Shown piece by piece: positions 13,367-32,610 of a stretch of 41,334 bases of DNA. Numbering within the stretch: the stretch's first letter is position 1; each line of letters opens with the position of its first letter. This DNA comes from Bacilli bacterium (lineage in GTDB: Bacteria > Bacillota_I > Bacilli_A > RF39 > UBA660): the NCBI GenBank assembly GCA_022798795.1, contig JAAWNF010000004.1, forward strand, positions 1 to 41,334. Reading direction: 5' to 3'. Both the position numbers and the translations under genes were made by a program. The notes under the pieces were generated by a model that saw only the letters and a program-made list of their open reading frames with translations, had not been told where the DNA came from and made no database searches.

Positions 13367-13394
13367 AAAAATAAGCCTTAAAAGACTTATTTTA
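13367..13394 (-). terminator. Terminator after comK, followed by an extended -10 (TGATATAAT) for recF
   Basis: Minus strand AAAATAAGTC-ttttaa-GGCTTATTTT-TT. Confidence 0.7.
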
Positions 13395-13841
13395 TGCAAG
13401 TTTTCTTTTTCTAAGAATGGATTCTAATCTTGTTGCTCTTAAAATCTGATTTTCTAATGAACCATATGAAATTTCTAGTTCTAAAGAATTGCCATTTTTG
13501 AAGTAAATAAAAGTTGCACAATCTTTTTTTGTATAATCTTCAATATGATTTAAAGAAATCCAAATGCATTCTTTTATTCTTGGTGATGTTGTTGGAAAAA
13601 AGATTAATTCCATTGTTTCTTCTACTATAATTGGCGATTTATAATTTACTCCAATTAAGTTTTTTGTCCCCTCATGTCTTCCCATATAAGAACTTCCAAA
13701 AAATTTACAACTTTCATCAATAATCTGTGTAGATGATTGATTGACTAAAAAGCTATCTTCCAGTTCGATAATTTTTGATGTTGTTTGGTCTACTGGAACA
13801 ATTGCTACTGTGGCAGAATTAATTTCATAATTCTGTTTCAT
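13392..13841 (-). CDS. comK: Competence transcription factor ComK family protein
   Basis: YEINSAT...IIDESCKFFGSSYMGRHEGTK...KSPII...IFFPTTSP...CIWISLNHI is the ComK signature. RBS AGGAGGG. Confidence 0.9.
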   Translation of the reverse strand: MKQNYEINSATVAIVPVDQTTSKIIELEDSFLVNQSSTQIIDESCKFFGSSYMGRHEGTKNLIGVNYKSPIIVEETMELIFFPTTSPRIKECIWISLNHIEDYTKKDCATFIYFKNGNSLELEISYGSLENQILRATRLESILRKRKLA

Positions 13842-15264: not shown

Positions 15265-16617
15265 TTATCTTATTTGATTTATTATCTTATTTATTTCTTT
15301 TTCCAAATTTACGTCGTTTTTAATTTCTTTTTTTATTTTGTCAACTGAATGCATAACGGTTGTATGGTCTTTTCCACCAAATTCTATTCCAATTTTAGGT
15401 AAAGATTCTTCTAATACTGTTCTACATATATACATTGCGATTTGTCTTGGAACCGCAATTTTGGCGACTCGTTTTTTGCTTTTCATTTCTTCTACTGTAA
15501 TATTATAATTACTAGCAACTAGTTGCAATACCTGCTCTACTTTGCTTTTTGATATGATACTTTTTACAAAATAGTCTTTTAATGCGTCAACAGCTAAATC
15601 TAAAGTGATATCAGAACCATTCATAATTGTTGCATAAGCGAATATTCTAGTAATGGCTCCTTCTAGCTTTCGAATGTCAGAAGTGCAATTACTAGCAATA
15701 TATTCTTTCACTTCTTGTGGAAAAGGTTTTGCCATATCATGTCCTTCTATTTTCTTATCAATGATATCCATACGAAGTTTAAAGTCAGGTGGTAGAATAT
15801 CAATGGTAAGTCCCCAGTTAAATCTCGTGCGAAGGCGTTCTTCTAATTTTTTTAAGTCATCTGGAGAACGGTCAGAGGAAATGATGATTTGTTTGTTATT
15901 GCAATGTAATTCATTAAAAGTATTAAAGAATTCTTGTTGCGTTTTACTTGCAATTTCTAAATATTGTATATCATCTATCATGAGAACATCTATTTCCCGA
16001 TATTTCTTTTTAAATTTTTCAACAGTTTCAAAGTTTGTTTCTTCATTATTTTTTCTATAAATGTTTAAAAAGTCATCAACAAATTTTTCACTTGTTACGT
16101 ATAGAACTTTTTTATGTGTCGTTTTATAAATATAGTTTCCGATAGCATGCATTAAATGTGTTTTTCCTAGTCCACTGCTTCCATATATAAAAAGTGGATT
16201 ATACATGAAGCCAGGTTGTTCTGCTACGGCAATAGAAGTGGCTTTTGCAAATTTATTACTCTCCCCTACTATAAAATTTTCAAATGTATATCTTGGGTCC
16301 AAATTTGATTCAAAAGTTGGGTCTTCATTGGCATTCGTATTGCCAGAAGCAATATTCACATTATTTTCTAAGTCTTCTTCAATAAAAAATTCAAATTTGA
16401 AATTAGAACCTGCAACTTCAGTGAATATTTCTTCAATGATATCATTGTAATTTTCTTTCAAATGTTTTTTATGTACTGGCATTGGAACCAATACTTTTGC
16501 GCTATTCCCTTTTAATTCTAACAGTTTTGTTTCTGAAAACCATGTTTCATATAACATTGGAGAAAGATTTTCCTTTATTTTCTCAAGAAACATGTTCCAG
16601 ATGGTGTCCAAATTCAT
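15265..16617 (-). CDS. dnaA: Chromosomal replication initiator DnaA
   Basis: Motifs YNPLFIYGSSGLGKTHL, IDDIQ, RLRTRF and GGKDHTTVMHS. Start is ATG 16617 or 16638; both follow GGGGTG. Confidence 0.99.
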   Translation of the reverse strand: MNLDTIWNMFLEKIKENLSPMLYETWFSETKLLELKGNSAKVLVPMPVHKKHLKENYNDIIEEIFTEVAGSNFKFEFFIEEDLENNVNIASGNTNANEDPTFESNLDPRYTFENFIVGESNKFAKATSIAVAEQPGFMYNPLFIYGSSGLGKTHLMHAIGNYIYKTTHKKVLYVTSEKFVDDFLNIYRKNNEETNFETVEKFKKKYREIDVLMIDDIQYLEIASKTQQEFFNTFNELHCNNKQIIISSDRSPDDLKKLEERLRTRFNWGLTIDILPPDFKLRMDIIDKKIEGHDMAKPFPQEVKEYIASNCTSDIRKLEGAITRIFAYATIMNGSDITLDLAVDALKDYFVKSIISKSKVEQVLQLVASNYNITVEEMKSKKRVAKIAVPRQIAMYICRTVLEESLPKIGIEFGGKDHTTVMHSVDKIKKEIKNDVNLEKEINKIINQIR

Positions 16618-16659
16618 GAATAGCACCCCCACTTCCATAAATACACCCCTATTTTACAA

Positions 16660-16995: not shown

Positions 16996-17601
16996 ATGGA
17001 ACGAAAATTAGATGATATAGAACTAGAAGAATTTGTACATTTTCATATAGACCAAACAACTTTAATTGTTAGAACGAATTCAGAAACAATATCTTATTCA
17101 TATCCAAATTCGTTAGAGTTATTAAGAAGAATAGGGTATTTATTACATCGTTATGAAGTAGAATACAATAGAAAAGAGGAACAAACAAAAGCAGTATCTA
17201 AAGTTCCTTTAACTCCAATTCAAAAAGAATGTCAAAAGCGATTATTGATAGGTCGTAATATTGTTTTTGGAACATATTTTGTTTATATACTACTAACTAT
17301 GTTATTTCCCAATATAACTCCCTTTTTATTTAATATATTTTTGGTAATTGATGGAGCAGCATTAATAACTGGAATAAAGAATGCAAGTATAATAAGAAGT
17401 GAGGCATTAAAGCAGGAAGAAACGAAACAAAATAATCAATCACAATTAGAAAAAGGTTTTGAGTCACTAAAAGAAACTGCACTTTCTTATTTAAATAAAA
17501 TAATGAAAGATAATACAAAATTTACTGTGGAGGAAAAACATTACATAGAAGTAATAGAAAAAGGATTTCAAAAAAGAATTGGTACTTATCCACAACAATA
17601 G
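16996..17601 (+). CDS. Hypothetical membrane protein (two TM helices flanked by charged regions)
   Basis: 201-aa ORF with its own promoter and a GGTGA RBS. Hydrophobic stretches IVFGTYFVYILLTMLF and FLFNIFLVIDGAALITGI. No family recognised. Confidence 0.75.
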   Translation: MERKLDDIELEEFVHFHIDQTTLIVRTNSETISYSYPNSLELLRRIGYLLHRYEVEYNRKEEQTKAVSKVPLTPIQKECQKRLLIGRNIVFGTYFVYILLTMLFPNITPFLFNIFLVIDGAALITGIKNASIIRSEALKQEETKQNNQSQLEKGFESLKETALSYLNKIMKDNTKFTVEEKHYIEVIEKGFQKRIGTYPQQ

Positions 17602-17806: not shown

Positions 17807-17834
17807 AACACCACTGATAAGTTCAGTGGTGTTT
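17807..17834 (+). terminator. Hairpin between rpmH and rnpA
   Basis: AACACCACTGA-taagt-TCAGTGGTGTT-T; short U-tract, probably leaky. Confidence 0.7.
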
Positions 17835-17864
17835 CATTATCTTAAAGTAGGAGTAGGGAAGCTT

Positions 17865-18203
17865 ATGAAAAAAATAAATATCTTAAAGAAAAATGAAGAT
17901 TTTAATAGAATAATTGCTTCTATAAAACCATATAAATATAAAGATTATATTATATATAAGGAAAAACATAATTTTGGAATTTCTCATTTTGGAATATCCG
18001 TTGGAAAAAAAGTAGGGAACGCAGTTACTCGAAATCATATAAAAAGGCAATTAAAAAATATAATTGACCAAATTCCCTATAAAAATAACTTTAATTGTAT
18101 TATAATAGTGAGGAAAGGAATTATTGGGAAATCATTTTTAGAAATGAAAAATGATTTAACAGAAGCAATGAAACAAGTACATATATTGGAGGAAAATGAA
18201 TGA
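17865..18203 (+). CDS. rnpA: Ribonuclease P protein component
   Basis: Motifs LKKNEDF and FGISVGKKVGNAVTRNHIKRQL. Start at ATG 17865. Confidence 0.96.
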   Translation: MKKINILKKNEDFNRIIASIKPYKYKDYIIYKEKHNFGISHFGISVGKKVGNAVTRNHIKRQLKNIIDQIPYKNNFNCIIIVRKGIIGKSFLEMKNDLTEAMKQVHILEENE

Positions 18204-24389: not shown

Positions 24390-24432
24390 TTTGGGAAATG
24401 ATATTGAAATATTTCCCAAAGTATAGTATTAT
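24390..24432 (+). promoter_or_regulatory. noc promoter straddled by a perfect 10-bp inverted repeat
   Basis: TTTGGGAAAT (24390-24399)-11nt-ATTTCCCAAA (24411-24420); -35 TTGAAA 24404-24409, 17 nt, -10 TATTAT 24427-24432. Confidence 0.7.
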
Positions 24433-24460
24433 AGTATATAGAATAAAAAGGAGGATGACT

Positions 24461-25975
24461 ATGGATAATAGAAAAATTGTCGAGCTAGACTTAAATGATA
24501 TATTGCCAAATAGATTTCAGCCAAGAATTAAGTTTAATGAAGATTCTATTACAGAACTAGCTGAGTCAATTAAAGAACATGGTGTCATTCAACCTATTGT
24601 TGTAAGACCTTTAGGGGATAGATATGAAATTATAGCTGGAGAAAGACGTTATAAAGCAAGTGTATTAGCTGGAAAAGAAACAATTCCAGCAATTGTAACT
24701 GAGTTAAATGATAAAGATAGTGCAGAAGTAGCGCTTATAGAGAATGTACAACGTCAAGATTTAACTCCAATAGAAGAAGCAATTTCATATAATAAAATTC
24801 TTGATATGGGATATTTAACACAGGAAGAATTGGCATTTAAATTAGGAAAAACTCAATCAACAATTGCAAATAAATTACGGTTATTAAAACTAGATGATGA
24901 AGTTCAAGAAGCTTTATTAGAATCCAAGATTTCAGAAAGACATGCAAGGTCTTTATTGAAATTGACAGATAAGAGTAAACAAAAGCAAATGTTAGCAAAA
25001 ATAATAAATGAAAGATTAACTGTAAGAAAAACAGATGAGGAGATAAGTAAAATGATGAATGAAAATGATAATAGAAATATAGAGATAATTGATTTCGGAA
25101 ATCAAAATAATAATACAGTACCTATGAATCAAGGTATGAATTATAATATTCCAACAACACCAATTGTAGAAGATGTGGTACCAACTATGCCACAAACACC
25201 AGTACAGGAAGCACCAGTTATAAATCCAGGCTTTATGAATGTAGAACAAATAGAAAAGACTGCACAAGATATTAATGTAGTTCCACCAGTAGCGAATATG
25301 GATGCATTATTAACTCCAGCTGATATGCTAAATACAGTACCAACTCCATCAACTAATGTTAATTTGGAAAATCCATTTGGAGTATCAATGGAGACAACGG
25401 AAGCAGAAGATGGTTCAGCAGAAGCAATGTTAAAACCTGGTAAATTTTTTAACTTATCCGATTTGGAAAACCCTGTTATGGAACAAAAACAGCCTGTTGT
25501 AGAAACACCAGTTGAGCAAGCGAATCCAATTTTAACAAATCCAACAGTAGGAATTCAATCAACAATAGAATCAGTTCCTATGAATCCATCAATGGAACAA
25601 TCGTCTATAGAGAAACCGATAGAAGTTGTAAATAATTTTGTAACAAATTTTGATAATACTATGACTGAAAAACCAACTCCAATTATTCCTGCTAATCCAG
25701 AGCCACTTATTCAAACCCCAATAATGGAGCCAATGAGTAATCAAACAATTGCGGTTCCTAATTATAATGAATTAGAATCAACAATGTATGGTCCAGTAAG
25801 TCCAATAACTCCATCGGTTCCTGAAATGCCAGTAGGACAGAATAATATGAAACAAGTAATTGATATTATTAGAGAGTGTTCTTCTAAAATAGAAGCCTTG
25901 GGATTTGAGATAGAAACTGAAGAATATGATTTTGAAGATATGTATCAAGCAATCTTTAAGATAAATAAGAAATAG
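24461..25975 (+). CDS. noc: ParB-family protein of the Noc (nucleoid occlusion) type with a long low-complexity insertion
   Basis: ParB CTPase motifs PNRFQPR, GERRYKA and ENVQR; HTH LGKTQSTIANKLRLLKL...ISERHAR (Noc-type); Noc-like C-terminus IETEEYDFEDMYQAIFKI. Follows rsmG. ATG 24461 after AGGAGG. Confidence 0.85.
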   Translation: MDNRKIVELDLNDILPNRFQPRIKFNEDSITELAESIKEHGVIQPIVVRPLGDRYEIIAGERRYKASVLAGKETIPAIVTELNDKDSAEVALIENVQRQDLTPIEEAISYNKILDMGYLTQEELAFKLGKTQSTIANKLRLLKLDDEVQEALLESKISERHARSLLKLTDKSKQKQMLAKIINERLTVRKTDEEISKMMNENDNRNIEIIDFGNQNNNTVPMNQGMNYNIPTTPIVEDVVPTMPQTPVQEAPVINPGFMNVEQIEKTAQDINVVPPVANMDALLTPADMLNTVPTPSTNVNLENPFGVSMETTEAEDGSAEAMLKPGKFFNLSDLENPVMEQKQPVVETPVEQANPILTNPTVGIQSTIESVPMNPSMEQSSIEKPIEVVNNFVTNFDNTMTEKPTPIIPANPEPLIQTPIMEPMSNQTIAVPNYNELESTMYGPVSPITPSVPEMPVGQNNMKQVIDIIRECSSKIEALGFEIETEEYDFEDMYQAIFKINKK

Positions 25976-25995
25976 CACTTAAATAGTGCTTTTTT
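25974..25995 (+). terminator. Terminator after noc
   Basis: AGCACT-taaat-AGTGCT-TTTTT. Confidence 0.75.
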
Positions 25996-26048
25996 CTATC
26001 ATTTTTAATGAAATTAAGATATAATATCCATAGTTAGGGGGATATTAA

Positions 26049-29000
26049 ATGTTAACATATGAACAATTTATGAATCTTGTTCCAAAAGAAACAGCTACTT
26101 TTGTATCAAAAGTATTACCTTATTTGGATGGATATTTGAGAGACGATGTAAAACTTCGATTTAAAGGTGATTATCAATCTGACCATAAAGATAGTAAAAC
26201 TAATTATTTACTACTATATTGTCTTTCAGACAGAAAAGAATATGCTACTTTTTTAAAAAGGTATGGATTTGATATAGAAAAATATAAAATAAACACAGAT
26301 TGGGTAAATTTAAATGTAAATAGTGAATTACTTTTCGAAAAATTTAGCCAAGTTTTTAATATTTATGATGACCAAACATTATATGCTAGTTTGACACCAT
26401 TGGATATTGTACAGAAAGCATTCAAACAATGTATTTCAAATTGTGGAAGTTACATTTTTGACTATTTATTTCCACATATAAGTTTAAATACTTTTTTAGA
26501 AGAATTAGAAAAATTAAGGCAAGCTGAAAAGATAGAAAATGAGCATCAACTGGAACAAGAAACCTATGGAGAACTTTCAATTTCTGTTATTTCTTATTTA
26601 GAGACTGCTTCAAAAATAAGAACGTTATTATATTCTATTTTGAGAAAGGATCATGAATTAATAAAATTAAATGATGAGGATATTGTACCGATATCATTAT
26701 TATTGGCTTTATATTATTATAAAGATATGCCTTTAAGAGAGGAAGAAATACCAGAGCAGAAACTTCTTCAAACTATGTTACAGGAAAAAGGTGTAAATTT
26801 AGATAAAATTACAAATGCAATTGGACAAAGTTTTTATGTAAATACAGTAAGAGATACAATAAAAAATGTAGATGCAATTAGATTACTATATTCAAAATAT
26901 TATTATAGTGGAGTGAATGAGAAAGTAGAAGAGGCGGAAATTACAGTATCAAAGATATTCAGTAACTTATTTGATCGTAATTTTACAAATAGTTATGCAA
27001 TAGAAAAATTATTTGCAAAATTAAATTGTTATGTAGGTGTTTTTTTGCCATTGGAAGAAAAAGTAGAAAAATTAAGGGATTCAGAAGAGCGAATAAATTC
27101 TTTATCTTATGTGAAAAATTTTTATGCAGAGCTTTCAAAAGAATCTAGAGATTTTATCGAGTTTACGACAAAGACTTATTTATTATTGTTAGAAAAAATG
27201 AAAGAAAAGACACATAATGAAGAAATATTGGTAGATGAAGATGATGCTGATACATTAGCTTTGTTTATTGCATCTTATTATTATAAATTAGATGTTAGTG
27301 AGTTCTTTGAGGACTATGGTATATCTTTAGAGAGCGTTTTAGAACTTTTAAATTTAAAAATAGCGAAAGAAGAAATAGACGCAATGAAACTAAATCAAAA
27401 AGTTTTGGTTGACCGTTATAAGAGATTCGTATATGAAGGAGTAAACAGAAATAAGTCGGCTAAAACTATACGTATTACTGATATTGCACATAACCTTTGT
27501 AATAGAGAGTTTAATCGTAGTATGATTATGGAGAATATTTTCTTTGAGCTGGCGAAATCTACCGATTTACAAAGTGACTTTTTAGAGCAATTAAGAATAC
27601 ATTTAGAAAAAAAAGAACAAAAAAGAAAGATGGATTTGACACAACGCTTATTTAAAGATATGCCAGTAAGTACTATGGAATATTTAGAAAACGCATCAAT
27701 TATACATCAATTTCTTCTTGGACATATAAAACAATATAGTGAAATGGATATACAAGTTTTATCTCTTTTACTTTCTGCAATTATTTCTACAAAATCAGAT
27801 ATTGCTAACTTTCTAAATTCAAAAAATTTAACGTTGAATGGTGTTTGTAACTTTTTAAGTGTATCACCAAACTATTTAATGAAAGGAACTATTAATATTG
27901 ATATTTTAGCAGAGCAATATGGAATGTTTATTTTCGGAGGTTGTAACAAAGACTTAGGAAGAAAAGATATAACTATATTTAATATAATAAGAAATATTTT
28001 TTCAAAAGATGTTTATAATAGTGTTTTAATTAGTAAATTTCTAGGAAATTTTGGATTATCTTATGAAGACTTTGAAAATCTGGAAGAGAAATTTGCGACT
28101 TATTTAGAGGAAACAGAAGAAGACAAAAAGATAGAAGAAGCAAAAGGAATATTAAATAGTTTTAGAGAAAAAGCAAAACAATATATCATAAATGTTATGC
28201 GTATTCATCAAAGATTGGTGAGAGTTGCCTATCAAGATGAATCAGTAGCACGTTTGATTCCAAATATAACAGATGTAAGAGAACTATCGCTTTTATTAGG
28301 AATGTTTACAATTGAAAATGATGTTCAATATTTTTTCGAAAAGAATAAGGTTACACTTGAACATATATGTTCATTAATTGGATTGGATACAGATATCATA
28401 AAAGGATTAGAAGGAGAAGAAATTAATTACAAATTGATTTTAGAAACTTATAGGCCTTGGATTCAATATGGAAGTTCAAACTATAATAGAACGGTATCAG
28501 ATTTGATTTCTAGGATTTTTGATAAGTCAATTGGAAAGGAGAGCTTAATTCTTGAAGAAATTGTATCTTTTGTTGGTTCTAACTATGATATTTTAAAAGA
28601 AGAGGTAGAATCTAAGAAAGACCATGAAGTCTCATTATCAATAGATGATAGAATTAAACTATTGTCTGAGGAAAGTATTGATGTATTAGATTTGACAGAT
28701 GTAAAAAGTATTTTGCATTTTGGAAATTCATTATCTATTCACTCAAAGTATATTCATGATGAATTGCCAAGACTAATGATGAGTGATGCTCATGATAAAT
28801 CAGTAGAAGCAATTCGTCATATTGTAGATAAAATATATACAGGAGTGCCAGTAGAAAAAAAAAAACGTTCCTTGTTTGAACGTATATTTGGTGTTATGGT
28901 AGAAGAAGAACCCAAGTTAGTATTAAACCCAGATGCAATTCAGGAACTGAAAGAGGCAATAGATTCTAATATAGAATCATTGTCAAAAGAATTATTAGGT

Positions 29001-29672
29001 TATGATGCAATTCGTAGGTATATTGAAGCATATCGTAAAAAAAATCGTTCTCATTTACTTGTAGCAATATCTGAAACAGAAAAAGTAGAGGAAGAAGTGA
29101 AAGGACTAGCTCCAGATAAGGAAGAAGAGTATGCAGCCTTTTTATTAGCTACATCTAGATTACAGATTATGAGAGATAAGACAAATCGTTTTAGTACTTC
29201 GAATCATTTAATGAAACAGGAATTGTTGAAAGTAAATCAAGCAATAGTAAATCATTTTATTACAATAAATGCATTAGAAATGGCAAAAGATGATTTGCTT
29301 CCTTTAATAGGAGCTGAACTTGCTCTTACACAAGGAAGAAATACTGAGAATAAAAGCTTAGATTTATCTGAAAATGTAATAGGACTATTTCAATCATTAT
29401 TATCTAGAAATGTAGCAGGAGCAGTTGAAAATATGGAAAAGTTAAAACAATCTAGTTTATCTGCAGATACTTTTGCTTTATTGAATAGAGATATTGAAGT
29501 TTATTTAAAAGGCTTGAATCAAGTAGCTCAGTTAGAGGGAAAAGTAGAATCTTTAGATATTGACCAAGTTGTAATTACTTCTGATTATAAACCAAAATTA
29601 GTATTAACTGGACAAGAAGATTCTATTGACCAGAAGAATAAGCAAATGGTTTTGGAATATCCAAAAGAGTAA
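26049..29672 (+). CDS. 1207-aa protein: five ~170-185-aa Clp-N(Clp R)-like helical repeats plus a C-terminal TelA/KlaA (toxic anion resistance)-like domain
   Basis: Repeats start near aa 7, 173, 359, 535 and 702. The C-terminal region LDLTDVKSILHFG...KKKRSLFERIFG...LLPLIGAEL...LLSRN resembles TelA. RBS AGGGGG. The ORF itself is solid; the domain calls are by eye. Confidence 0.65.
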   Translation: MLTYEQFMNLVPKETATFVSKVLPYLDGYLRDDVKLRFKGDYQSDHKDSKTNYLLLYCLSDRKEYATFLKRYGFDIEKYKINTDWVNLNVNSELLFEKFSQVFNIYDDQTLYASLTPLDIVQKAFKQCISNCGSYIFDYLFPHISLNTFLEELEKLRQAEKIENEHQLEQETYGELSISVISYLETASKIRTLLYSILRKDHELIKLNDEDIVPISLLLALYYYKDMPLREEEIPEQKLLQTMLQEKGVNLDKITNAIGQSFYVNTVRDTIKNVDAIRLLYSKYYYSGVNEKVEEAEITVSKIFSNLFDRNFTNSYAIEKLFAKLNCYVGVFLPLEEKVEKLRDSEERINSLSYVKNFYAELSKESRDFIEFTTKTYLLLLEKMKEKTHNEEILVDEDDADTLALFIASYYYKLDVSEFFEDYGISLESVLELLNLKIAKEEIDAMKLNQKVLVDRYKRFVYEGVNRNKSAKTIRITDIAHNLCNREFNRSMIMENIFFELAKSTDLQSDFLEQLRIHLEKKEQKRKMDLTQRLFKDMPVSTMEYLENASIIHQFLLGHIKQYSEMDIQVLSLLLSAIISTKSDIANFLNSKNLTLNGVCNFLSVSPNYLMKGTINIDILAEQYGMFIFGGCNKDLGRKDITIFNIIRNIFSKDVYNSVLISKFLGNFGLSYEDFENLEEKFATYLEETEEDKKIEEAKGILNSFREKAKQYIINVMRIHQRLVRVAYQDESVARLIPNITDVRELSLLLGMFTIENDVQYFFEKNKVTLEHICSLIGLDTDIIKGLEGEEINYKLILETYRPWIQYGSSNYNRTVSDLISRIFDKSIGKESLILEEIVSFVGSNYDILKEEVESKKDHEVSLSIDDRIKLLSEESIDVLDLTDVKSILHFGNSLSIHSKYIHDELPRLMMSDAHDKSVEAIRHIVDKIYTGVPVEKKKRSLFERIFGVMVEEEPKLVLNPDAIQELKEAIDSNIESLSKELLGYDAIRRYIEAYRKKNRSHLLVAISETEKVEEEVKGLAPDKEEEYAAFLLATSRLQIMRDKTNRFSTSNHLMKQELLKVNQAIVNHFITINALEMAKDDLLPLIGAELALTQGRNTENKSLDLSENVIGLFQSLLSRNVAGAVENMEKLKQSSLSADTFALLNRDIEVYLKGLNQVAQLEGKVESLDIDQVVITSDYKPKLVLTGQEDSIDQKNKQMVLEYPKE

Positions 29673-29720
29673 CTTTCTACTCTTTTTTTGTGTTATAATA
29701 TAAGCTATAGGAGTAAGAAT

Positions 29721-30770
29721 ATGAAAAAAGAATATCAGGTAATTATTGTTGGAGCTGGGCCCTCTGGCTTGTCTGCTGCTCTACATTTAAAAAATCTTGG
29801 AATGACAGATATTTTAATAATTGAAAAGGATATATTTCCAAGATACAAGTGTTGTGCTGGTTATATAACAACGAAAACAAGAAAGATATATGAGAACTTA
29901 GGACTTAAATTAGAGAATTGTCATTATACATTAATCAAAGATTTTCATATTTTTTATAAGTATAATAAGAAGCAAACTATTGATAATAGATTTCTGTATA
30001 CCAATAGAAAGATTGACCGAGTAGAACTAGATTATGAATTTTATAAATTAGCAAAAGAAAAGGATGTAGAGTTCTTAGAAGGAATTAAAATAAGGTCGCA
30101 TAATATAGAAAAATCGAAACTTTATTTATCGAATAATCAAACAATTTATTATCAGAATTTAATTTTTGCAGATGGAACTTTAGGGTATGGGAGCAAATAT
30201 CAGACGAATAAAAAACGAAATATAGCCCTTCAACTAACGTTTCCAAGTGAGTATTTTGATGAAATACAAATTCATTTTGGAATTACAAAAAAAGGATATG
30301 GATGGGTAAGTAGTTATCAAGGTATAACCAATGTAGGGTTGACAGATGTATATAATAATCACTATAATTATAGAGAAATATTTTCTGAATTTTTAAAGAA
30401 CTTAAATATTAATATAGATATGGAAAATTTAAAAGGCGCTTTTACACCAATTGGAATTAGAAAGCCGATTATTTATAATAATATTTTTTATATAGGAGAT
30501 GCAGTAGGAGCGTGTGACCCACTTACTTTATCTGGTTTACGATATGGTTTGATGACAGGAGAAAAATGTGCATTGGCAATTGTGAAAAAAAATAATAATA
30601 TTTATAAAAATTGTATTAGACTTCTAAAGTTCCGATTTTTATTTATGAGGATATTACAAAAAATATTTTATGTAAAGTATATTTTATTTTTAGTTTTTAA
30701 TGTAGGATGTCGATATTTTGGCAATTTTATTAGTTTTATTTTTAATAATTTTTTTGTTAATAAAAAGTAA
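29721..30770 (+). CDS. FAD-dependent oxidoreductase, geranylgeranyl reductase/FixC family
   Basis: Motifs IVGAGPSG, EKDIFPRYKCCAG, RVELD, ADG, GYGWV and IGDAVGACDPLTLSG. ATG 29721 after AGGAG. Confidence 0.85.
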   Translation: MKKEYQVIIVGAGPSGLSAALHLKNLGMTDILIIEKDIFPRYKCCAGYITTKTRKIYENLGLKLENCHYTLIKDFHIFYKYNKKQTIDNRFLYTNRKIDRVELDYEFYKLAKEKDVEFLEGIKIRSHNIEKSKLYLSNNQTIYYQNLIFADGTLGYGSKYQTNKKRNIALQLTFPSEYFDEIQIHFGITKKGYGWVSSYQGITNVGLTDVYNNHYNYREIFSEFLKNLNINIDMENLKGAFTPIGIRKPIIYNNIFYIGDAVGACDPLTLSGLRYGLMTGEKCALAIVKKNNNIYKNCIRLLKFRFLFMRILQKIFYVKYILFLVFNVGCRYFGNFISFIFNNFFVNKK

Positions 30771-31524: not shown

Positions 31525-32610
31525 ATGAAAAAATTGTTGTATTATGTTGTTTTTGGATTATTATTTTTGTTACCAACCTCTGTGAAAGCAGATGTAGCAA
31601 TAAAATCAACATCGTTAAATGGACCATTGAGTGTAGAAGAAGGGTCATCATTTACAATGACTGTAAATGTGAATGTTTCTGGATTAAGTAAACTTCCCAA
31701 TTCGTCTCAGGGTATTGCATCAGCAATATTTGCTTTTGGGATGGATGAAGATGTGTTTATACTAGAGTCAGTTTCTGCAGAAGGATTTGAATCAATTGCT
31801 CAAAAAGTAGATGGTGTGTATTATATATTGAGTCAGTCATTGCAAAATAATAATTGTGGCTCAGGAATGTTATATTGTGGAGATTATAAAGTTGAATTAA
31901 AATTTTATGTAAAAAATACAACTTTGAATTCATCTGTAATTACATTAGGAGAAGTAGCAATGGGATTTATTGATGTGGAAACTTATCAAACAGAAGATGA
32001 TATTATTGTTAGACGTTATGATGAATATAAACCACATTCAATTGTGATAAATCATAAAAAGGAATCAGCAGTCGTAGAATCACCAAAAACCATAGTAGAA
32101 GAACAAAAAGAAAAGCCAAAAGTGACAGAGAAGCCAGTGGCCCCAAAAAAAGAGATACCAAAATCATCAAATGCTTTATTAAAATCAATAGTAGTAGAAA
32201 ATTATAATGTTGACTTTGATACATATTTATTAGAATATACATTAGAAGTAGAAGAAGGTGTTAATAGTCTTTCAATAAAGGCGGAAGTAGAAGATGAAAA
32301 AGCGAACTATAAAATTATAGGAGCAGAAGATTTAAAGAAAAATGAGAACAAAGTGTTGATAGAAGTGACTGCAGAAAATGGGAATAAAAAAGTTTATACA
32401 ATTAATACGAAAATAAAAGAGCAGACAAAAGAAGTGGAAAAGATTGTAGAGAAAACAGAAATTGAAACTCAAGAAAAAGTGACAGTAAATAAAAAATTTG
32501 TAACATATATCATAATTTTCTTTGGTGGGATTGTAGGTTTAGTAATAATTGGATTTATTATTTCAAAAATAAGAAATAGAAAACTTAATAAAATGTTAGA
32601 TGAATTATAA
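31525..32610 (+). CDS. Membrane-anchored surface protein with cadherin-like beta-sandwich domain
   Basis: Signal peptide ending VKA; beta-rich N-domain; K/E/P linker; KSSNALLKSI...IEVTAENGNKKVYTI; C-terminal TM helix and basic tail. Confidence 0.8.
   Translation: MKKLLYYVVFGLLFLLPTSVKADVAIKSTSLNGPLSVEEGSSFTMTVNVNVSGLSKLPNSSQGIASAIFAFGMDEDVFILESVSAEGFESIAQKVDGVYYILSQSLQNNNCGSGMLYCGDYKVELKFYVKNTTLNSSVITLGEVAMGFIDVETYQTEDDIIVRRYDEYKPHSIVINHKKESAVVESPKTIVEEQKEKPKVTEKPVAPKKEIPKSSNALLKSIVVENYNVDFDTYLLEYTLEVEEGVNSLSIKAEVEDEKANYKIIGAEDLKKNENKVLIEVTAENGNKKVYTINTKIKEQTKEVEKIVEKTEIETQEKVTVNKKFVTYIIIFFGGIVGLVIIGFIISKIRNRKLNKMLDEL

What the first reader, a model, noticed from the sequence alone, without database searches (positions are those of the whole stretch)
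26049..29672. Candidate novel architecture: five tandem Clp-N-like repeats fused to a TelA/KlaA domain
Seen: five diverged units start near nt 26067, 26565, 27123, 27651 and 28152. Each shows a helix like (F/Y)xx(L/M)xxxxxx(Y/F)(L/I)Exxxx(I/T), then D-x3-(L/I)SLLL, then (F/M)(L/F)xxxG(V/I)xL, then (Y/F)xGxN...(I/V)xx(I/L)xxN(L/I)F...S. This is the pattern of the substrate/adaptor-binding double Clp-N domain of ClpC/ClpB. No Walker A/B motif is present. From ~28670 the sequence follows the TelA pattern (LDLTDVKSILHFG, amphipathic KKKRSLFERIFG, long helices, LLPL, LLSRN). Known: TelA/YaaN proteins are ~350-400-aa membrane-associated stress-resistance proteins usually paired with XpaC. Inference: a stand-alone sensor-effector in which Clp-N-like repeats bind damaged or foreign (phage, bacteriocin) proteins or act as ClpC decoys, coupled to a membrane-acting helical domain. 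It has its own promoter and terminator and sits where soj-spo0J would be expected. This is the best candidate for an undescribed system here.
Basis: partly seen in the sequence, partly recalled or inferred. Interest (0 to 1): 0.75.

Follow-up and report, generated by a model that had tools for sequence, protein, structure and literature searches.

The report
Giant TelA-like protein with five repeats
This gene encodes a 1207-residue cytoplasmic protein, found only in uncultured gut Bacilli, with five diverged helical repeat modules in front of a divergent TelA (toxic-anion/envelope-stress) domain; this domain arrangement has not been described and its function is untested.

Summary
The ORF 26049-29672 (+) is real and encodes 1207 aa. 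Sub-alignment hhalign gives 99.0-99.8 % probability among units 2-5 and 97.2 % for unit 1 versus unit 4. The AlphaFold model of aa 1-873 is all-helical and confident (pLDDT 89.5).

The C-terminal ~300 aa is a divergent TelA domain, on four lines of evidence:
- Pfam TelA hits in 6 of 123 family members, one above cut-off.
- hhalign against a KlaB/TelA profile: P 3.4e-5 over 276 columns.
- The seven best BFVD structure matches include five phage TelA or tellurite-resistance proteins, all at probability 1.00.
- One ESM Atlas lead.

The Clp_N likeness of the repeats is weaker. Sequence evidence recurs and is in register, but probability stays below 27 %. The one structure search gave no support.

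Neighbours are housekeeping or envelope genes and are not conserved, and there is no PADLOC hit. No downstream terminator was found.

Verdict: an uncharacterised, lineage-restricted TelA-family variant of moderate interest.

The parts
26049..29672 (+). CDS of the 1207-aa protein (P0001), stop TAA 29670-29672
   Evidence: There are 95 homologous 90 % clusters, mostly 1100-1230 aa, and none has a precomputed Pfam domain.
26020..26042 (+). Possible -10 box TATAAT (26020-26025) and RBS AGGGGGA (26036-26042), 6 nt before the ATG
   Evidence: Read from the sequence. The consensus promoter scan did not report a site here, so this is unverified.
25974..25996 (+). Terminator-like hairpin plus T-run that ends the upstream noc/parB-like gene; it sets a transcription boundary before the target
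   Evidence: 6-bp stem, 3 GC pairs, TTTTTT tail
26049..26573 (+). Repeat unit 1 (aa 1-175), the most diverged
   Evidence: hhalign U1-U4 97.2 %, U1-U3 81.7 %; helical in the model
26574..27131 (+). Repeat unit 2 (aa 176-361)
   Evidence: hhalign 99.0-99.8 % to U3-U5. Best Clp_N alignment: 113 columns, P 7.5e-4, probability 25.5 %.
27132..27659 (+). Repeat unit 3 (aa 362-537)
   Evidence: hhalign 99.4-99.8 %; Clp_N P 0.024
27660..28163 (+). Repeat unit 4 (aa 538-705)
   Evidence: hhalign 99.2-99.8 %. The Pfam Clp_N stretch of homologue P0039 (556-598) maps to aa 560-603 here.
28164..28667 (+). Repeat unit 5 (aa 706-873)
   Evidence: hhalign 99.0-99.4 %; Clp_N P 7e-4, probability 26.5 %, 36 columns
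28668..29582 (+). Divergent TelA-like domain (aa 874-1178). The hhalign-aligned core is aa 879-1156. It is the most conserved part of the family.
   Evidence: All invariant columns except Y377 lie here.
28857..28901 (+). Basic-then-hydrophobic segment KKKRSLFERIFGVMV (aa 937-951) in a lower-confidence loop flanked by two short strands; candidate membrane-contact element (inferred)
   Evidence: Helical hydrophobic moment up to 1.36. pLDDT 64-69 and strands at model residues 71-74 and 97-100. The KKKG...RLF motif is kept in the family consensus.
29583..29669 (+). Low-confidence, poorly conserved C-terminal tail (aa 1179-1207)
   Evidence: pLDDT below 50 at model residues 320-348

Best explanation
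The gene encodes a soluble, acidic cytoplasmic protein of a lineage-specific family. The family is known only from MAGs labelled uncultured Bacilli, 'Tenericutes', Mycoplasma, Erysipelotrichaceae or Clostridiales. The protein is a much-enlarged member of the TelA/KlaB/YaaN superfamily.

Shown:
- Five homologous ~170-185-aa all-helical modules lie in tandem, followed by a ~300-aa domain with TelA sequence and fold.
- The TelA-like domain is the conserved end of the protein.
- There is no ATPase motif, no transmembrane helix, and no conserved operon partner.

Inferred:
- The TelA-like domain does what TelA does elsewhere. That is a role at the cytoplasmic face of the membrane in envelope-stress tolerance, whose biochemistry is still unknown. 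Contact may run through the conserved basic-hydrophobic loop at aa 937-951.
- The five modules form a built-in protein-binding or regulatory platform. They stand in for a separately encoded partner such as XpaC.
- The modules are probably very distant derivatives of the double Clp-N motif. The explanation does not depend on that.
For: Repeats: hhalign 97-99.8 %. The model of aa 1-873 has pLDDT 89.5 with five similar sets of helices joined by long helices of about 24-28 residues. A unit HMM finds 4 units in 102 and 5 units in 7 of the 159 relatives of at least 1000 aa.

TelA:
- Pfam TelA at E <= 0.005 in 6 of 123 full-length relatives scanned. These are P0223 (56.5 bits, cut-off 30, E 3e-15), P0161 (E 3e-6), P0124 (7e-6), P0153 (5e-5), P0117 and P0225 (2e-4). 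All hits lie in the C-terminal domain.
- P0223 itself matches the family's C-terminal profile at E 1e-25.
- hhalign of the 197-sequence C-terminal profile against 119 KlaB-like TelA proteins gives probability 71.9 %, P 3.4e-5 and 276 co-linear columns (aa 879-1156 against KlaB 43-335). The reversed control gives P 0.085.
- In Foldseek against BFVD, five of the seven best matches are phage proteins named TelA or tellurite resistance. All seven have probability 1.00, E 4.6e-4 to 7e-3 and TM 0.36-0.53.
- One Atlas neighbour cluster is 54 % TelA.

Cytoplasmic and soluble: the maximum 19-residue hydropathy is 1.38, pI is 5.1, and there is no Walker A.

Function of TelA relatives:
- A lmo1967 mutant is 4-fold more sensitive to nisin, and YaaN is induced by a cationic peptide (PMC12791056, passages read).
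- In E. faecium the xpaC deletion phenotype (daptomycin binding, lipid-domain redistribution) needs intact telA (PMC6811118, whole abstract read).

Neighbours in other lineages include glmS, LemA, DUF2207, DUF218, FemAB, a D-Ala-D-Ala carboxypeptidase, an acyltransferase and YqfD.
Against: - The window's own protein has no Pfam or NCBIfam hit at E <= 10 to TelA or Clp_N.
- 117 of 123 relatives have no TelA hit at E <= 0.005.
- The PDB holds no significant match for either model. The PDB profile searches gave no hits or only three weak, unrelated ones (E 0.13-0.9), none a Clp or TelA protein.
- No function of TelA is established biochemically, so 'works like TelA' carries little mechanism.
- No XpaC-like gene and no conserved envelope partner is linked.
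- The envelope flavour of the neighbours is loose and was not tested statistically.
- Clp_N ancestry of the modules is unproven: hhalign probability is at most 26.5 %; Clp_N was not among the 25 listed of 78 families when 60 isolated units were scanned; there is no Foldseek hit; and there is no detectable half-versus-half similarity inside a unit.
Confidence: 0.55

Rival explanations
1. One reading: a stand-alone defence or stress sensor-effector. The Clp-N-like repeats capture foreign (phage, bacteriocin) or damaged proteins, or titrate ClpC adaptors, and trigger a membrane-damaging TelA-like effector.
For: - The TelA-like model has weak resemblance to ClyA-family pore-forming toxins: XaxA E 0.02 and probability 0.91; ClyA probability 0.84 and TM 0.30.
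- In E. faecium TelA is harmful to membrane organisation when XpaC is missing (PMC6811118, abstract).
- Phages carry TelA homologues.
Against: - No PADLOC hit for the protein, three relatives or its neighbours beyond generic ParB_N and HD matches.
- Neighbours are housekeeping genes at oriC.
- Context differs between lineages and contains no recognisable defence or mobile genes among the 25 neighbour clusters scanned.
- Each of the 29 loci recovered holds one copy of the gene, and the C-terminal domain is strongly conserved, which fits vertical inheritance.
- The Foldseek toxin matches are not significant (none at E <= 1e-3).
Confidence: 0.08
2. Proteostasis adaptor: the array of Clp_N-like modules supplies substrate- or adaptor-binding N-domains in trans to a Clp/Hsp100 ATPase that lacks its own N-domain. 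The TelA-like domain anchors this at the membrane.
For: - In L014 and L018 a 468/481-aa AAA+ protein lies one or two genes downstream of the homologue. It matches ClpA/ClpB models only from the position just after their N-domain (ClpB profile 149, ClpA 163; E about 1e-49).
- The weak Clp_N signal in the repeats.
Against: - The ATPase is linked in only 2 of 29 loci. Both belong to one sub-lineage (51 % identical target proteins) that shares a wider synteny block including glmS.
- No such ATPase is in the window.
- Clp_N homology itself is unproven.
Confidence: 0.1
3. Chromosome, nucleoid or division scaffold: a long helical protein working with the unusual Noc/ParB-like protein encoded just upstream, in genomes that lack Soj at this position.
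For: - The gene follows rsmG and a 525-aa Noc-like ParB with a ~300-aa low-complexity tail. No ParA/Soj is among the ORFs of at least 100 aa in the window.
- A ParB-like gene lies immediately upstream, or one gene away, in the window and 7 of 29 loci (L001-L006, L016).
- Weak Foldseek matches to SMC coiled coils.
Against: - The linkage is absent in the other 22 loci, where neighbours are unrelated.
- The SMC matches are generic long-helix hits (E >= 0.04).
- The conserved end of the protein is TelA-like, and TelA has no known role in segregation.
Confidence: 0.08

Closest known systems
TelA / KlaB / YaaN family (Pfam PF05816, 'toxic anion resistance protein')
   Same: The C-terminal ~300 aa aligns co-linearly with KlaB residues 43-335. 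It shares the most conserved helix region, N-Q-x-I-V-N-H-F-I-T-I against N-N-Q-M-L-V-D-K-F-H-T-I. Its predicted fold matches phage TelA models best. The protein is soluble and acidic with no transmembrane helix.
   Different: - Canonical TelA proteins are about 360-400 aa and single-domain. In Firmicutes they are paired with xpaC (PMC12791056, PMC6811118).
- Here the domain is too diverged for the Pfam model to detect it in the window protein.
- It is preceded by about 870 aa of repeats.
- It has no xpaC-like neighbour.
Clp_N double repeat (Pfam PF02861) of ClpA, ClpB and ClpC
   Same: - The D-x3-LSLLLA ... F-x4-G-I/V-T motif aligns with the H-L-L-L-A-L-L ... L-x3-G-V/I motif of Clp_N.
- Units 2 and 4 align over both Clp_N sub-repeats, at 106-113 columns.
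- Each unit has about 8-9 helices. The 8-helix count for Clp N-domains is recalled, not taken from a call.
   Different: - Not attached to any AAA+ module.
- Five copies in tandem, each extended by a long linker helix of about 24-28 residues.
- Similarity is below the usual significance thresholds.
- No structural match was found with the only query that could be sent.
XpaC-TelA two-gene envelope-stress module of Firmicutes
   Same: A TelA-type domain that appears to need a partner or regulator (the E. faecium xpaC phenotype depends on telA; PMC6811118 abstract).
   Different: The partner function, if there is one, would be fused N-terminally and is unrelated to XpaC. Pfam reported no XpaC-type family for the window's 32 other ORFs of at least 100 aa.
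ClyA-family alpha-helical pore-forming toxins (XaxA, AhlB, ClyA, MakA)
   Same: An elongated bundle of very long helices with a short strand-containing loop at one end. These are the top PDB matches of the C-terminal model.
   Different: The matches are not significant (E 0.02-0.3, TM 0.17-0.30, 9-11 % identity). The protein has no signal for export. This is a resemblance only.

Membership tests
TelA (PF05816) | Score against the Pfam TelA model above the gathering cut-off (30 bits) | tested here: not met
   The window protein has no TelA hit at E <= 10. Among 123 full-length relatives, 1 is above the cut-off (P0223, 56.5 bits) and 5 more have E between 3e-6 and 2e-4.
TelA (PF05816) | Profile-profile homology, co-linear over most of the domain | tested here: met
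   hhalign gives probability 71.9 %, P 3.4e-5 and 276 columns, aligning aa 879-1156 with KlaB 43-335. The reversed-profile control gives P 0.085, and units versus TelA give P 0.17-0.48. The TelA profile was narrow (at least 64 % identity to KlaB, Neff 2.9).
TelA (PF05816) | TelA fold | tested here: met
   The model of aa 860-1207 has pLDDT 82.4. The seven best BFVD matches all have probability 1.00, E 4.6e-4 to 7e-3 and TM up to 0.53, and five of them are named TelA or tellurite resistance. No TelA chain was among the PDB matches listed, so the comparison is model to model.
TelA (PF05816) | Single-domain protein of about 360-400 aa, in Firmicutes next to xpaC | tested here: not met
   The protein is 1207 aa with about 870 aa of N-terminal repeats. 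Pfam reported no XpaC-type family for the window's 32 other ORFs of at least 100 aa, nor for the 25 neighbour clusters scanned.
TelA (PF05816) | Contributes to tolerance of tellurite, nisin and cell-envelope agents | not testable with these tools
   Known for relatives only (PMC12791056 passages; PMC6811118 abstract).
Clp_N (PF02861) | Score against the Pfam Clp_N repeat model above the cut-off (20.7 bits) | tested here: not met
   The window protein has no hit. Among 123 relatives the whole-protein score is above the cut-off in 2 (P0039 30.8 bits, P0111 22.1 bits), with P0200 at 18.2 bits. No single stretch was significant on its own. When 60 isolated units were scanned, Clp_N was not among the 25 of 78 families listed.
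Clp_N (PF02861) | Profile-profile homology to the ClpA/ClpB N-domain | tested here: inconclusive
   Units 1-5 against a 131-sequence ClpA/ClpB N-domain profile give P 0.11, 7.5e-4, 0.024, 0.0023 and 7e-4, with probability at most 26.5 %. Reversed controls give P 0.23-0.56. A pooled 545-unit profile is weaker at P 0.015. A Clp_N HMM scores above 5 bits in 27 of 159 relatives, against 1 of 159 reversed and 0 of 159 shuffled.
Clp_N (PF02861) | Double four-helix repeat fold | tested here: inconclusive
   Foldseek of the whole 873-aa model against the PDB gave no match at E <= 1e-3 and no Clp chain in the 50 listed. Half-versus-half hhalign inside a unit shows nothing (12 columns, P 0.039).
Clp_N (PF02861) | N-terminal appendage of a Clp/Hsp100 AAA+ ATPase | tested here: not met
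   There is no Walker A and no GK[ST], and no AAA family in Pfam or NCBIfam.
Known anti-phage defence systems (PADLOC-DB 2.0) | Match to any defence-system protein model | tested here: not met
   No family for P0001, P0039, P0223 or P0161. The neighbours give only generic ParB_N and HD matches.

The most novel reading that the evidence does not exclude
The protein is a self-contained membrane-stress machine of a kind not yet described. An array of five degenerate Clp-N modules acts as a multivalent receptor for damaged or tagged proteins, or as detachable N-domains for an N-less Clp ATPase of the kind seen next to it in two lineages. This array controls a TelA domain that remodels or perforates the cytoplasmic membrane in the manner of a ClyA-type helical bundle. 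If so, it would give TelA, a protein family with no known biochemical mechanism, its first mechanistic link, namely to proteostasis.
Probability: 0.1. Interest if true: 0.75.

Novelty: new variant of a known kind. Interest (0 to 1): 0.45.

Why it matters
TelA/YaaN proteins are widespread. They affect tolerance to nisin, daptomycin and tellurite, yet have no known mechanism.

A natural fusion often shows what a domain works with. Here the TelA domain is joined to a five-fold protein-binding-type repeat array in place of the usual separate partner. This suggests that TelA activity is coupled to recognition of other proteins.

The family is also an unannotated ~1200-aa protein recurring in a clade of uncultured gut Bacilli. 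A name and domain map for it improve annotation of those genomes.

The practical limits are real. There is no cultured host, no experimental handle yet, and the Clp_N link is unproven.

Tried and rejected
- Direct Pfam and NCBIfam scans of P0001: only noise.
- HMM searches of PDB sequences with the whole-protein, pooled-unit and unit-4 profiles: 0, 3 irrelevant and 0 hits.
- Foldseek of the 873-aa repeat model against the PDB: only long, non-significant alignments to albumins and other helical repeat proteins. This is uninformative for a single unit.
- Foldseek of the C-terminal model against the PDB: nothing at E <= 1e-3, only weak ClyA-family and SMC matches.
- ESM Atlas with unit 3: no usable hit.
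- tblastn of the C-terminal domain against 72,556 plasmids at E <= 10: no match.
- hhalign of the unit and C-terminal profiles against single ClpB, ClpA and KlaB sequences: right register, not significant.
- BLASTP of P0161 against KlaB: E 0.051.
- Pooling 545 units into one profile lowered the Clp_N signal.
- The test for an internal duplication within a unit was negative.
- PADLOC: nothing.
- The full-length protein was too long for the representative search, so the C-terminal profile was searched instead. 42 of its 192 hits were not listed and stayed unseen.
- Accession BN000925 is not in the plasmid collection; NC_008357 was used instead.
- Literature: four searches found no paper describing a TelA protein with N-terminal Clp_N-like repeats. 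Subscription journals are not covered.


Full report
**The object.** The window is a low-GC (26-34 %) chromosomal origin region. GC skew changes sign near 16-17 kb, between dnaA (15265-16638, -) and rnpA (17826-18203, +). On the + strand the order is rnpA, yidC, jag, an HD protein, mnmE, mnmG, rsmG, a 525-aa Noc/ParB-like gene (24398-25975) and then the ORF in question. That ORF is 26049-29672 and encodes 1207 aa. The protein is acidic (pI 5.1) and has no 19-residue window above hydropathy 1.38. It has no Walker A and no GK[ST]. Pfam and NCBIfam give only noise for it.

**The repeats are real.**
- Units 2-5 are mutually related at 99.0-99.8 % probability (E 2e-18 to 5e-28).
- Unit 1 is related to unit 4 at 97.2 %.
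- The C-terminal 334 aa is unrelated to any unit.
- The AlphaFold2 model of aa 1-873 (72-row alignment) is confident, with mean pLDDT 89.5 and no residue below 50, and entirely helical. Each unit has a similar succession of about 8-9 helices ending in a long connecting helix of about 24-28 residues (146-173, 335-359, 512-535, 678-703).
- pTM is 0.54, so the relative placement of the units is uncertain.
- The units in the window are only 18-20 % identical to each other. Nothing unit-sized repeats at DNA level. The one exception is a 43-nt, 74 % match spaced 558 nt apart in the linker helices of units 1 and 2.

**The family.**
- A word-indexed search found 95 clusters at E <= 1e-3. Nearly all are 1100-1230 aa, none has a precomputed Pfam domain, and the only source name is 'hypothetical protein'.
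- An exhaustive profile search with the C-terminal domain found 192 representatives at E <= 1e-3 among 1.84 billion. The 150 listed are all the same family or fragments of it. Some are longer (1370 and 1629 aa) and some shorter (about 770 aa).
- A unit HMM detects 4 units in 102, and 5 units in 7, of the 159 relatives of at least 1000 aa. The diverged unit 1 usually escapes detection.
- In one genome per species of GTDB, 29 loci were recovered. Nearly all are in MAGs labelled uncultured Bacilli, 'Tenericutes', Mycoplasma sp., Erysipelotrichaceae or Clostridiales, and one contig belongs to a bin labelled Muribaculaceae. That these are RF39-type gut Bacilli is my recollection, not a tool result.

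**The C-terminal domain is TelA-like.** Four lines of evidence agree.
- *Pfam.* TelA is hit at E <= 0.005 in 6 of 123 full-length relatives, always in the C-terminal domain. One hit is above the curated cut-off (P0223: 56.5 bits, E 3e-15, profile positions 8-263 of 332). The same protein matches the family's own C-terminal profile at E 1e-25, so it bridges the two. There were no hits among the 39 closer relatives.
- *Profile-profile comparison.* I took KlaB from plasmid pBS228 and collected 119 KlaB-like proteins, all labelled PF05816. I compared them with a 197-sequence alignment of the family's C-terminal domain. The result was probability 71.9 %, P 3.4e-5 and 276 co-linear columns, aligning aa 879-1156 with KlaB 43-335. 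A reversed TelA profile gives P 0.085, and the repeat units against TelA give P 0.17-0.48. The TelA profile was narrow (Neff 2.9), which probably understates the relationship.
- *Structure.* The model of aa 860-1207 has pLDDT 82.4. Its seven best matches among predicted viral protein structures all have probability 1.00, E 4.6e-4 to 7e-3, TM up to 0.53 and 285-351 aligned columns. Five of the seven are phage proteins named tellurite resistance, TelA or toxic anion resistance.
- *ESM Atlas.* One of the three nearest clusters is 54 % TelA (a lead only).

In the PDB nothing is significant. The best weak matches are ClyA-family pore-forming toxins and SMC coiled coils.

**Are the repeats Clp_N-like?** The evidence is consistent but weak.

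*For:*
- The Pfam Clp_N whole-protein score is above the cut-off in P0039 (30.8 bits, E 3.4e-7) and P0111 (22.1 bits). P0200 scores 18.2 bits. That is 3 of 123 relatives at E <= 0.005.
- The P0039 stretch maps exactly onto the D-x3-LSLLL...F-x4-L motif of unit 4 in the window (aa 560-603).
- Against a 131-sequence ClpA/ClpB N-domain profile, units 1-5 give P 0.11, 7.5e-4, 0.024, 0.0023 and 7e-4. Reversed controls give 0.23-0.56. Unit 2 aligns over 113 columns spanning both Clp_N sub-repeats.
- The signal rose when nine more diverse ClpB N-domains were added to the profile.
- A Clp_N HMM scores above 5 bits in 27 of 159 relatives, against 1 of 159 reversed and 0 of 159 shuffled. These relatives are not independent of each other.

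*Against:*
- hhalign probabilities never exceed 26.5 %.
- When 60 isolated units were scanned, Clp_N was not among the 25 of 78 families listed.
- Three PDB sequence-profile searches found no Clp protein.
- A pooled 545-unit profile is weaker.
- No similarity is detectable between the two halves of a unit.
- Foldseek of the whole 873-aa model returned no Clp N-domain. That query favours long alignments, so it is a poor test for one 140-aa helical domain.

I put the Clp_N derivation at roughly two in three and list it as inconclusive.

**Context.**
- The gene follows a terminator-like hairpin of the noc-like gene (25974-25990). It is preceded by a perfect TATAAT (26020-25) and a strong RBS. No terminator follows it.
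- The next gene is a geranylgeranyl-reductase-family flavoprotein. It most likely starts at ATG 29721 behind TGTTATAAT.
- The rsmG/noc-like/target arrangement, sometimes with a gene in between, is seen in the window and 7 of 29 loci (L001-L006, L016). In the other 22 loci the neighbours are unrelated.
- Those other neighbours include glmS, DUF218, LemA, DUF2207, FemAB, a D-Ala-D-Ala carboxypeptidase, an acyltransferase, YqfD, a signal peptidase, YqeY and a bacteriocin-type ABC exporter. This gives a loose envelope flavour. No partner is conserved.
- PADLOC finds nothing.
- In L014 and L018 a Clp/Hsp100-type AAA+ protein that begins just after where the N-domain would be lies downstream. This is one sub-lineage with wider shared synteny.

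**How it most likely works.**

*Shown:* the domain map, the conservation pattern (all invariant columns except Y377 lie in the TelA-like domain), cytoplasmic solubility, and the absence of catalytic or nucleotide-binding motifs.

*Inferred:*
- The TelA-like domain is the effector end and acts at the inner face of the membrane, as proposed for TelA relatives. A lmo1967 mutant is more sensitive to nisin and tellurite (PMC12791056, passages read). In E. faecium the effect of deleting xpaC on daptomycin binding and lipid domains requires intact telA (PMC6811118, abstract read). That result suggests TelA acts on the membrane and is restrained by a partner.
- The conserved basic-hydrophobic loop at aa 937-951, between two short strands at one end of the bundle, is a candidate membrane contact.
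- The five modules would be a fused recognition or regulatory platform. Multivalency, low sequence conservation and a helical repeat build all fit protein binding better than catalysis.

**Novelty.** The TelA superfamily is known. This architecture and this family are unannotated. I found no description in four literature searches, which do not cover subscription journals. I rate it a new variant of a known kind, of moderate interest. It offers a natural fusion that could point to what TelA works with, but it sits in uncultured organisms and its key resemblance (Clp_N) is unproven.

**Limits.**
- 42 weak hits were not shown.
- The Clp_N and TelA comparison profiles were taxonomically narrow.
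- No single-unit structure search was possible.

Noticed in passing
window 13392-13841 (-): A ComK-family gene (Pfam ComK E 5e-49) sits between dnaN and recF in the origin-proximal dnaA operon region. This is an unusual place for a competence regulator.
   Followed up: no
window 24398-25975 (+): The Noc/ParB-like protein is 525 aa. ParB_N and HTH_ParB occupy aa 26-220, and the NCBIfam Noc score of 292 bits is just under the 315 cut-off. A proline-, threonine-, asparagine- and glutamate-rich low-complexity tail of about 300 aa follows. No ParA/Soj is among the window's ORFs of at least 100 aa.
   Followed up: partly
window 16996-17601 (+): A 201-aa ORF in the dnaA-rnpA intergenic (oriC) region has no Pfam or NCBIfam match. 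It may be spurious or a lineage-specific gene.
   Followed up: partly
L014 11651-13057 and L018 12230-13675: A 468/481-aa AAA+ protein matches ClpA/ClpB models only from just after their N-domain (profile positions 149 and 163 onward, E about 1e-49). It lies one to two genes downstream of the target homologue and is followed by glmS. It is seen in 2 of 29 loci.
   Followed up: partly
window 29688-30770 (+): The mechanical ORF start is TTG 29688. ATG 29721, with an AGGAG RBS and an extended -10 (TGTTATAAT, 29691-29699), is the likelier start. The product is a geranylgeranyl-reductase-family flavoprotein. It is shorter (199 aa) in L001 and only an 84-aa remnant matches in L002.
   Followed up: partly
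window 31525-32610 (+): A 361-aa protein with an N-terminal signal-like segment, a cadherin-like beta-sandwich domain and a C-terminal hydrophobic anchor. It is conserved only in the closest relatives (L001, L002).
   Followed up: no
BFVD matches of model mced80bd58953: TelA-like proteins of about 360-390 aa are encoded by phages of Lactobacillus, Pseudomonas, Escherichia and Vibrio. They are the closest available structural models to the C-terminal domain.
   Followed up: no
P0223 (778 aa), P0225 (770 aa), P0153 (1370 aa), P0161 (1629 aa): The family has length variants. The ~770-aa forms have zero or one detectable unit and a more canonical TelA domain. The longer forms have extra N-terminal sequence. 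This hints that the repeat array expanded stepwise.
   Followed up: partly
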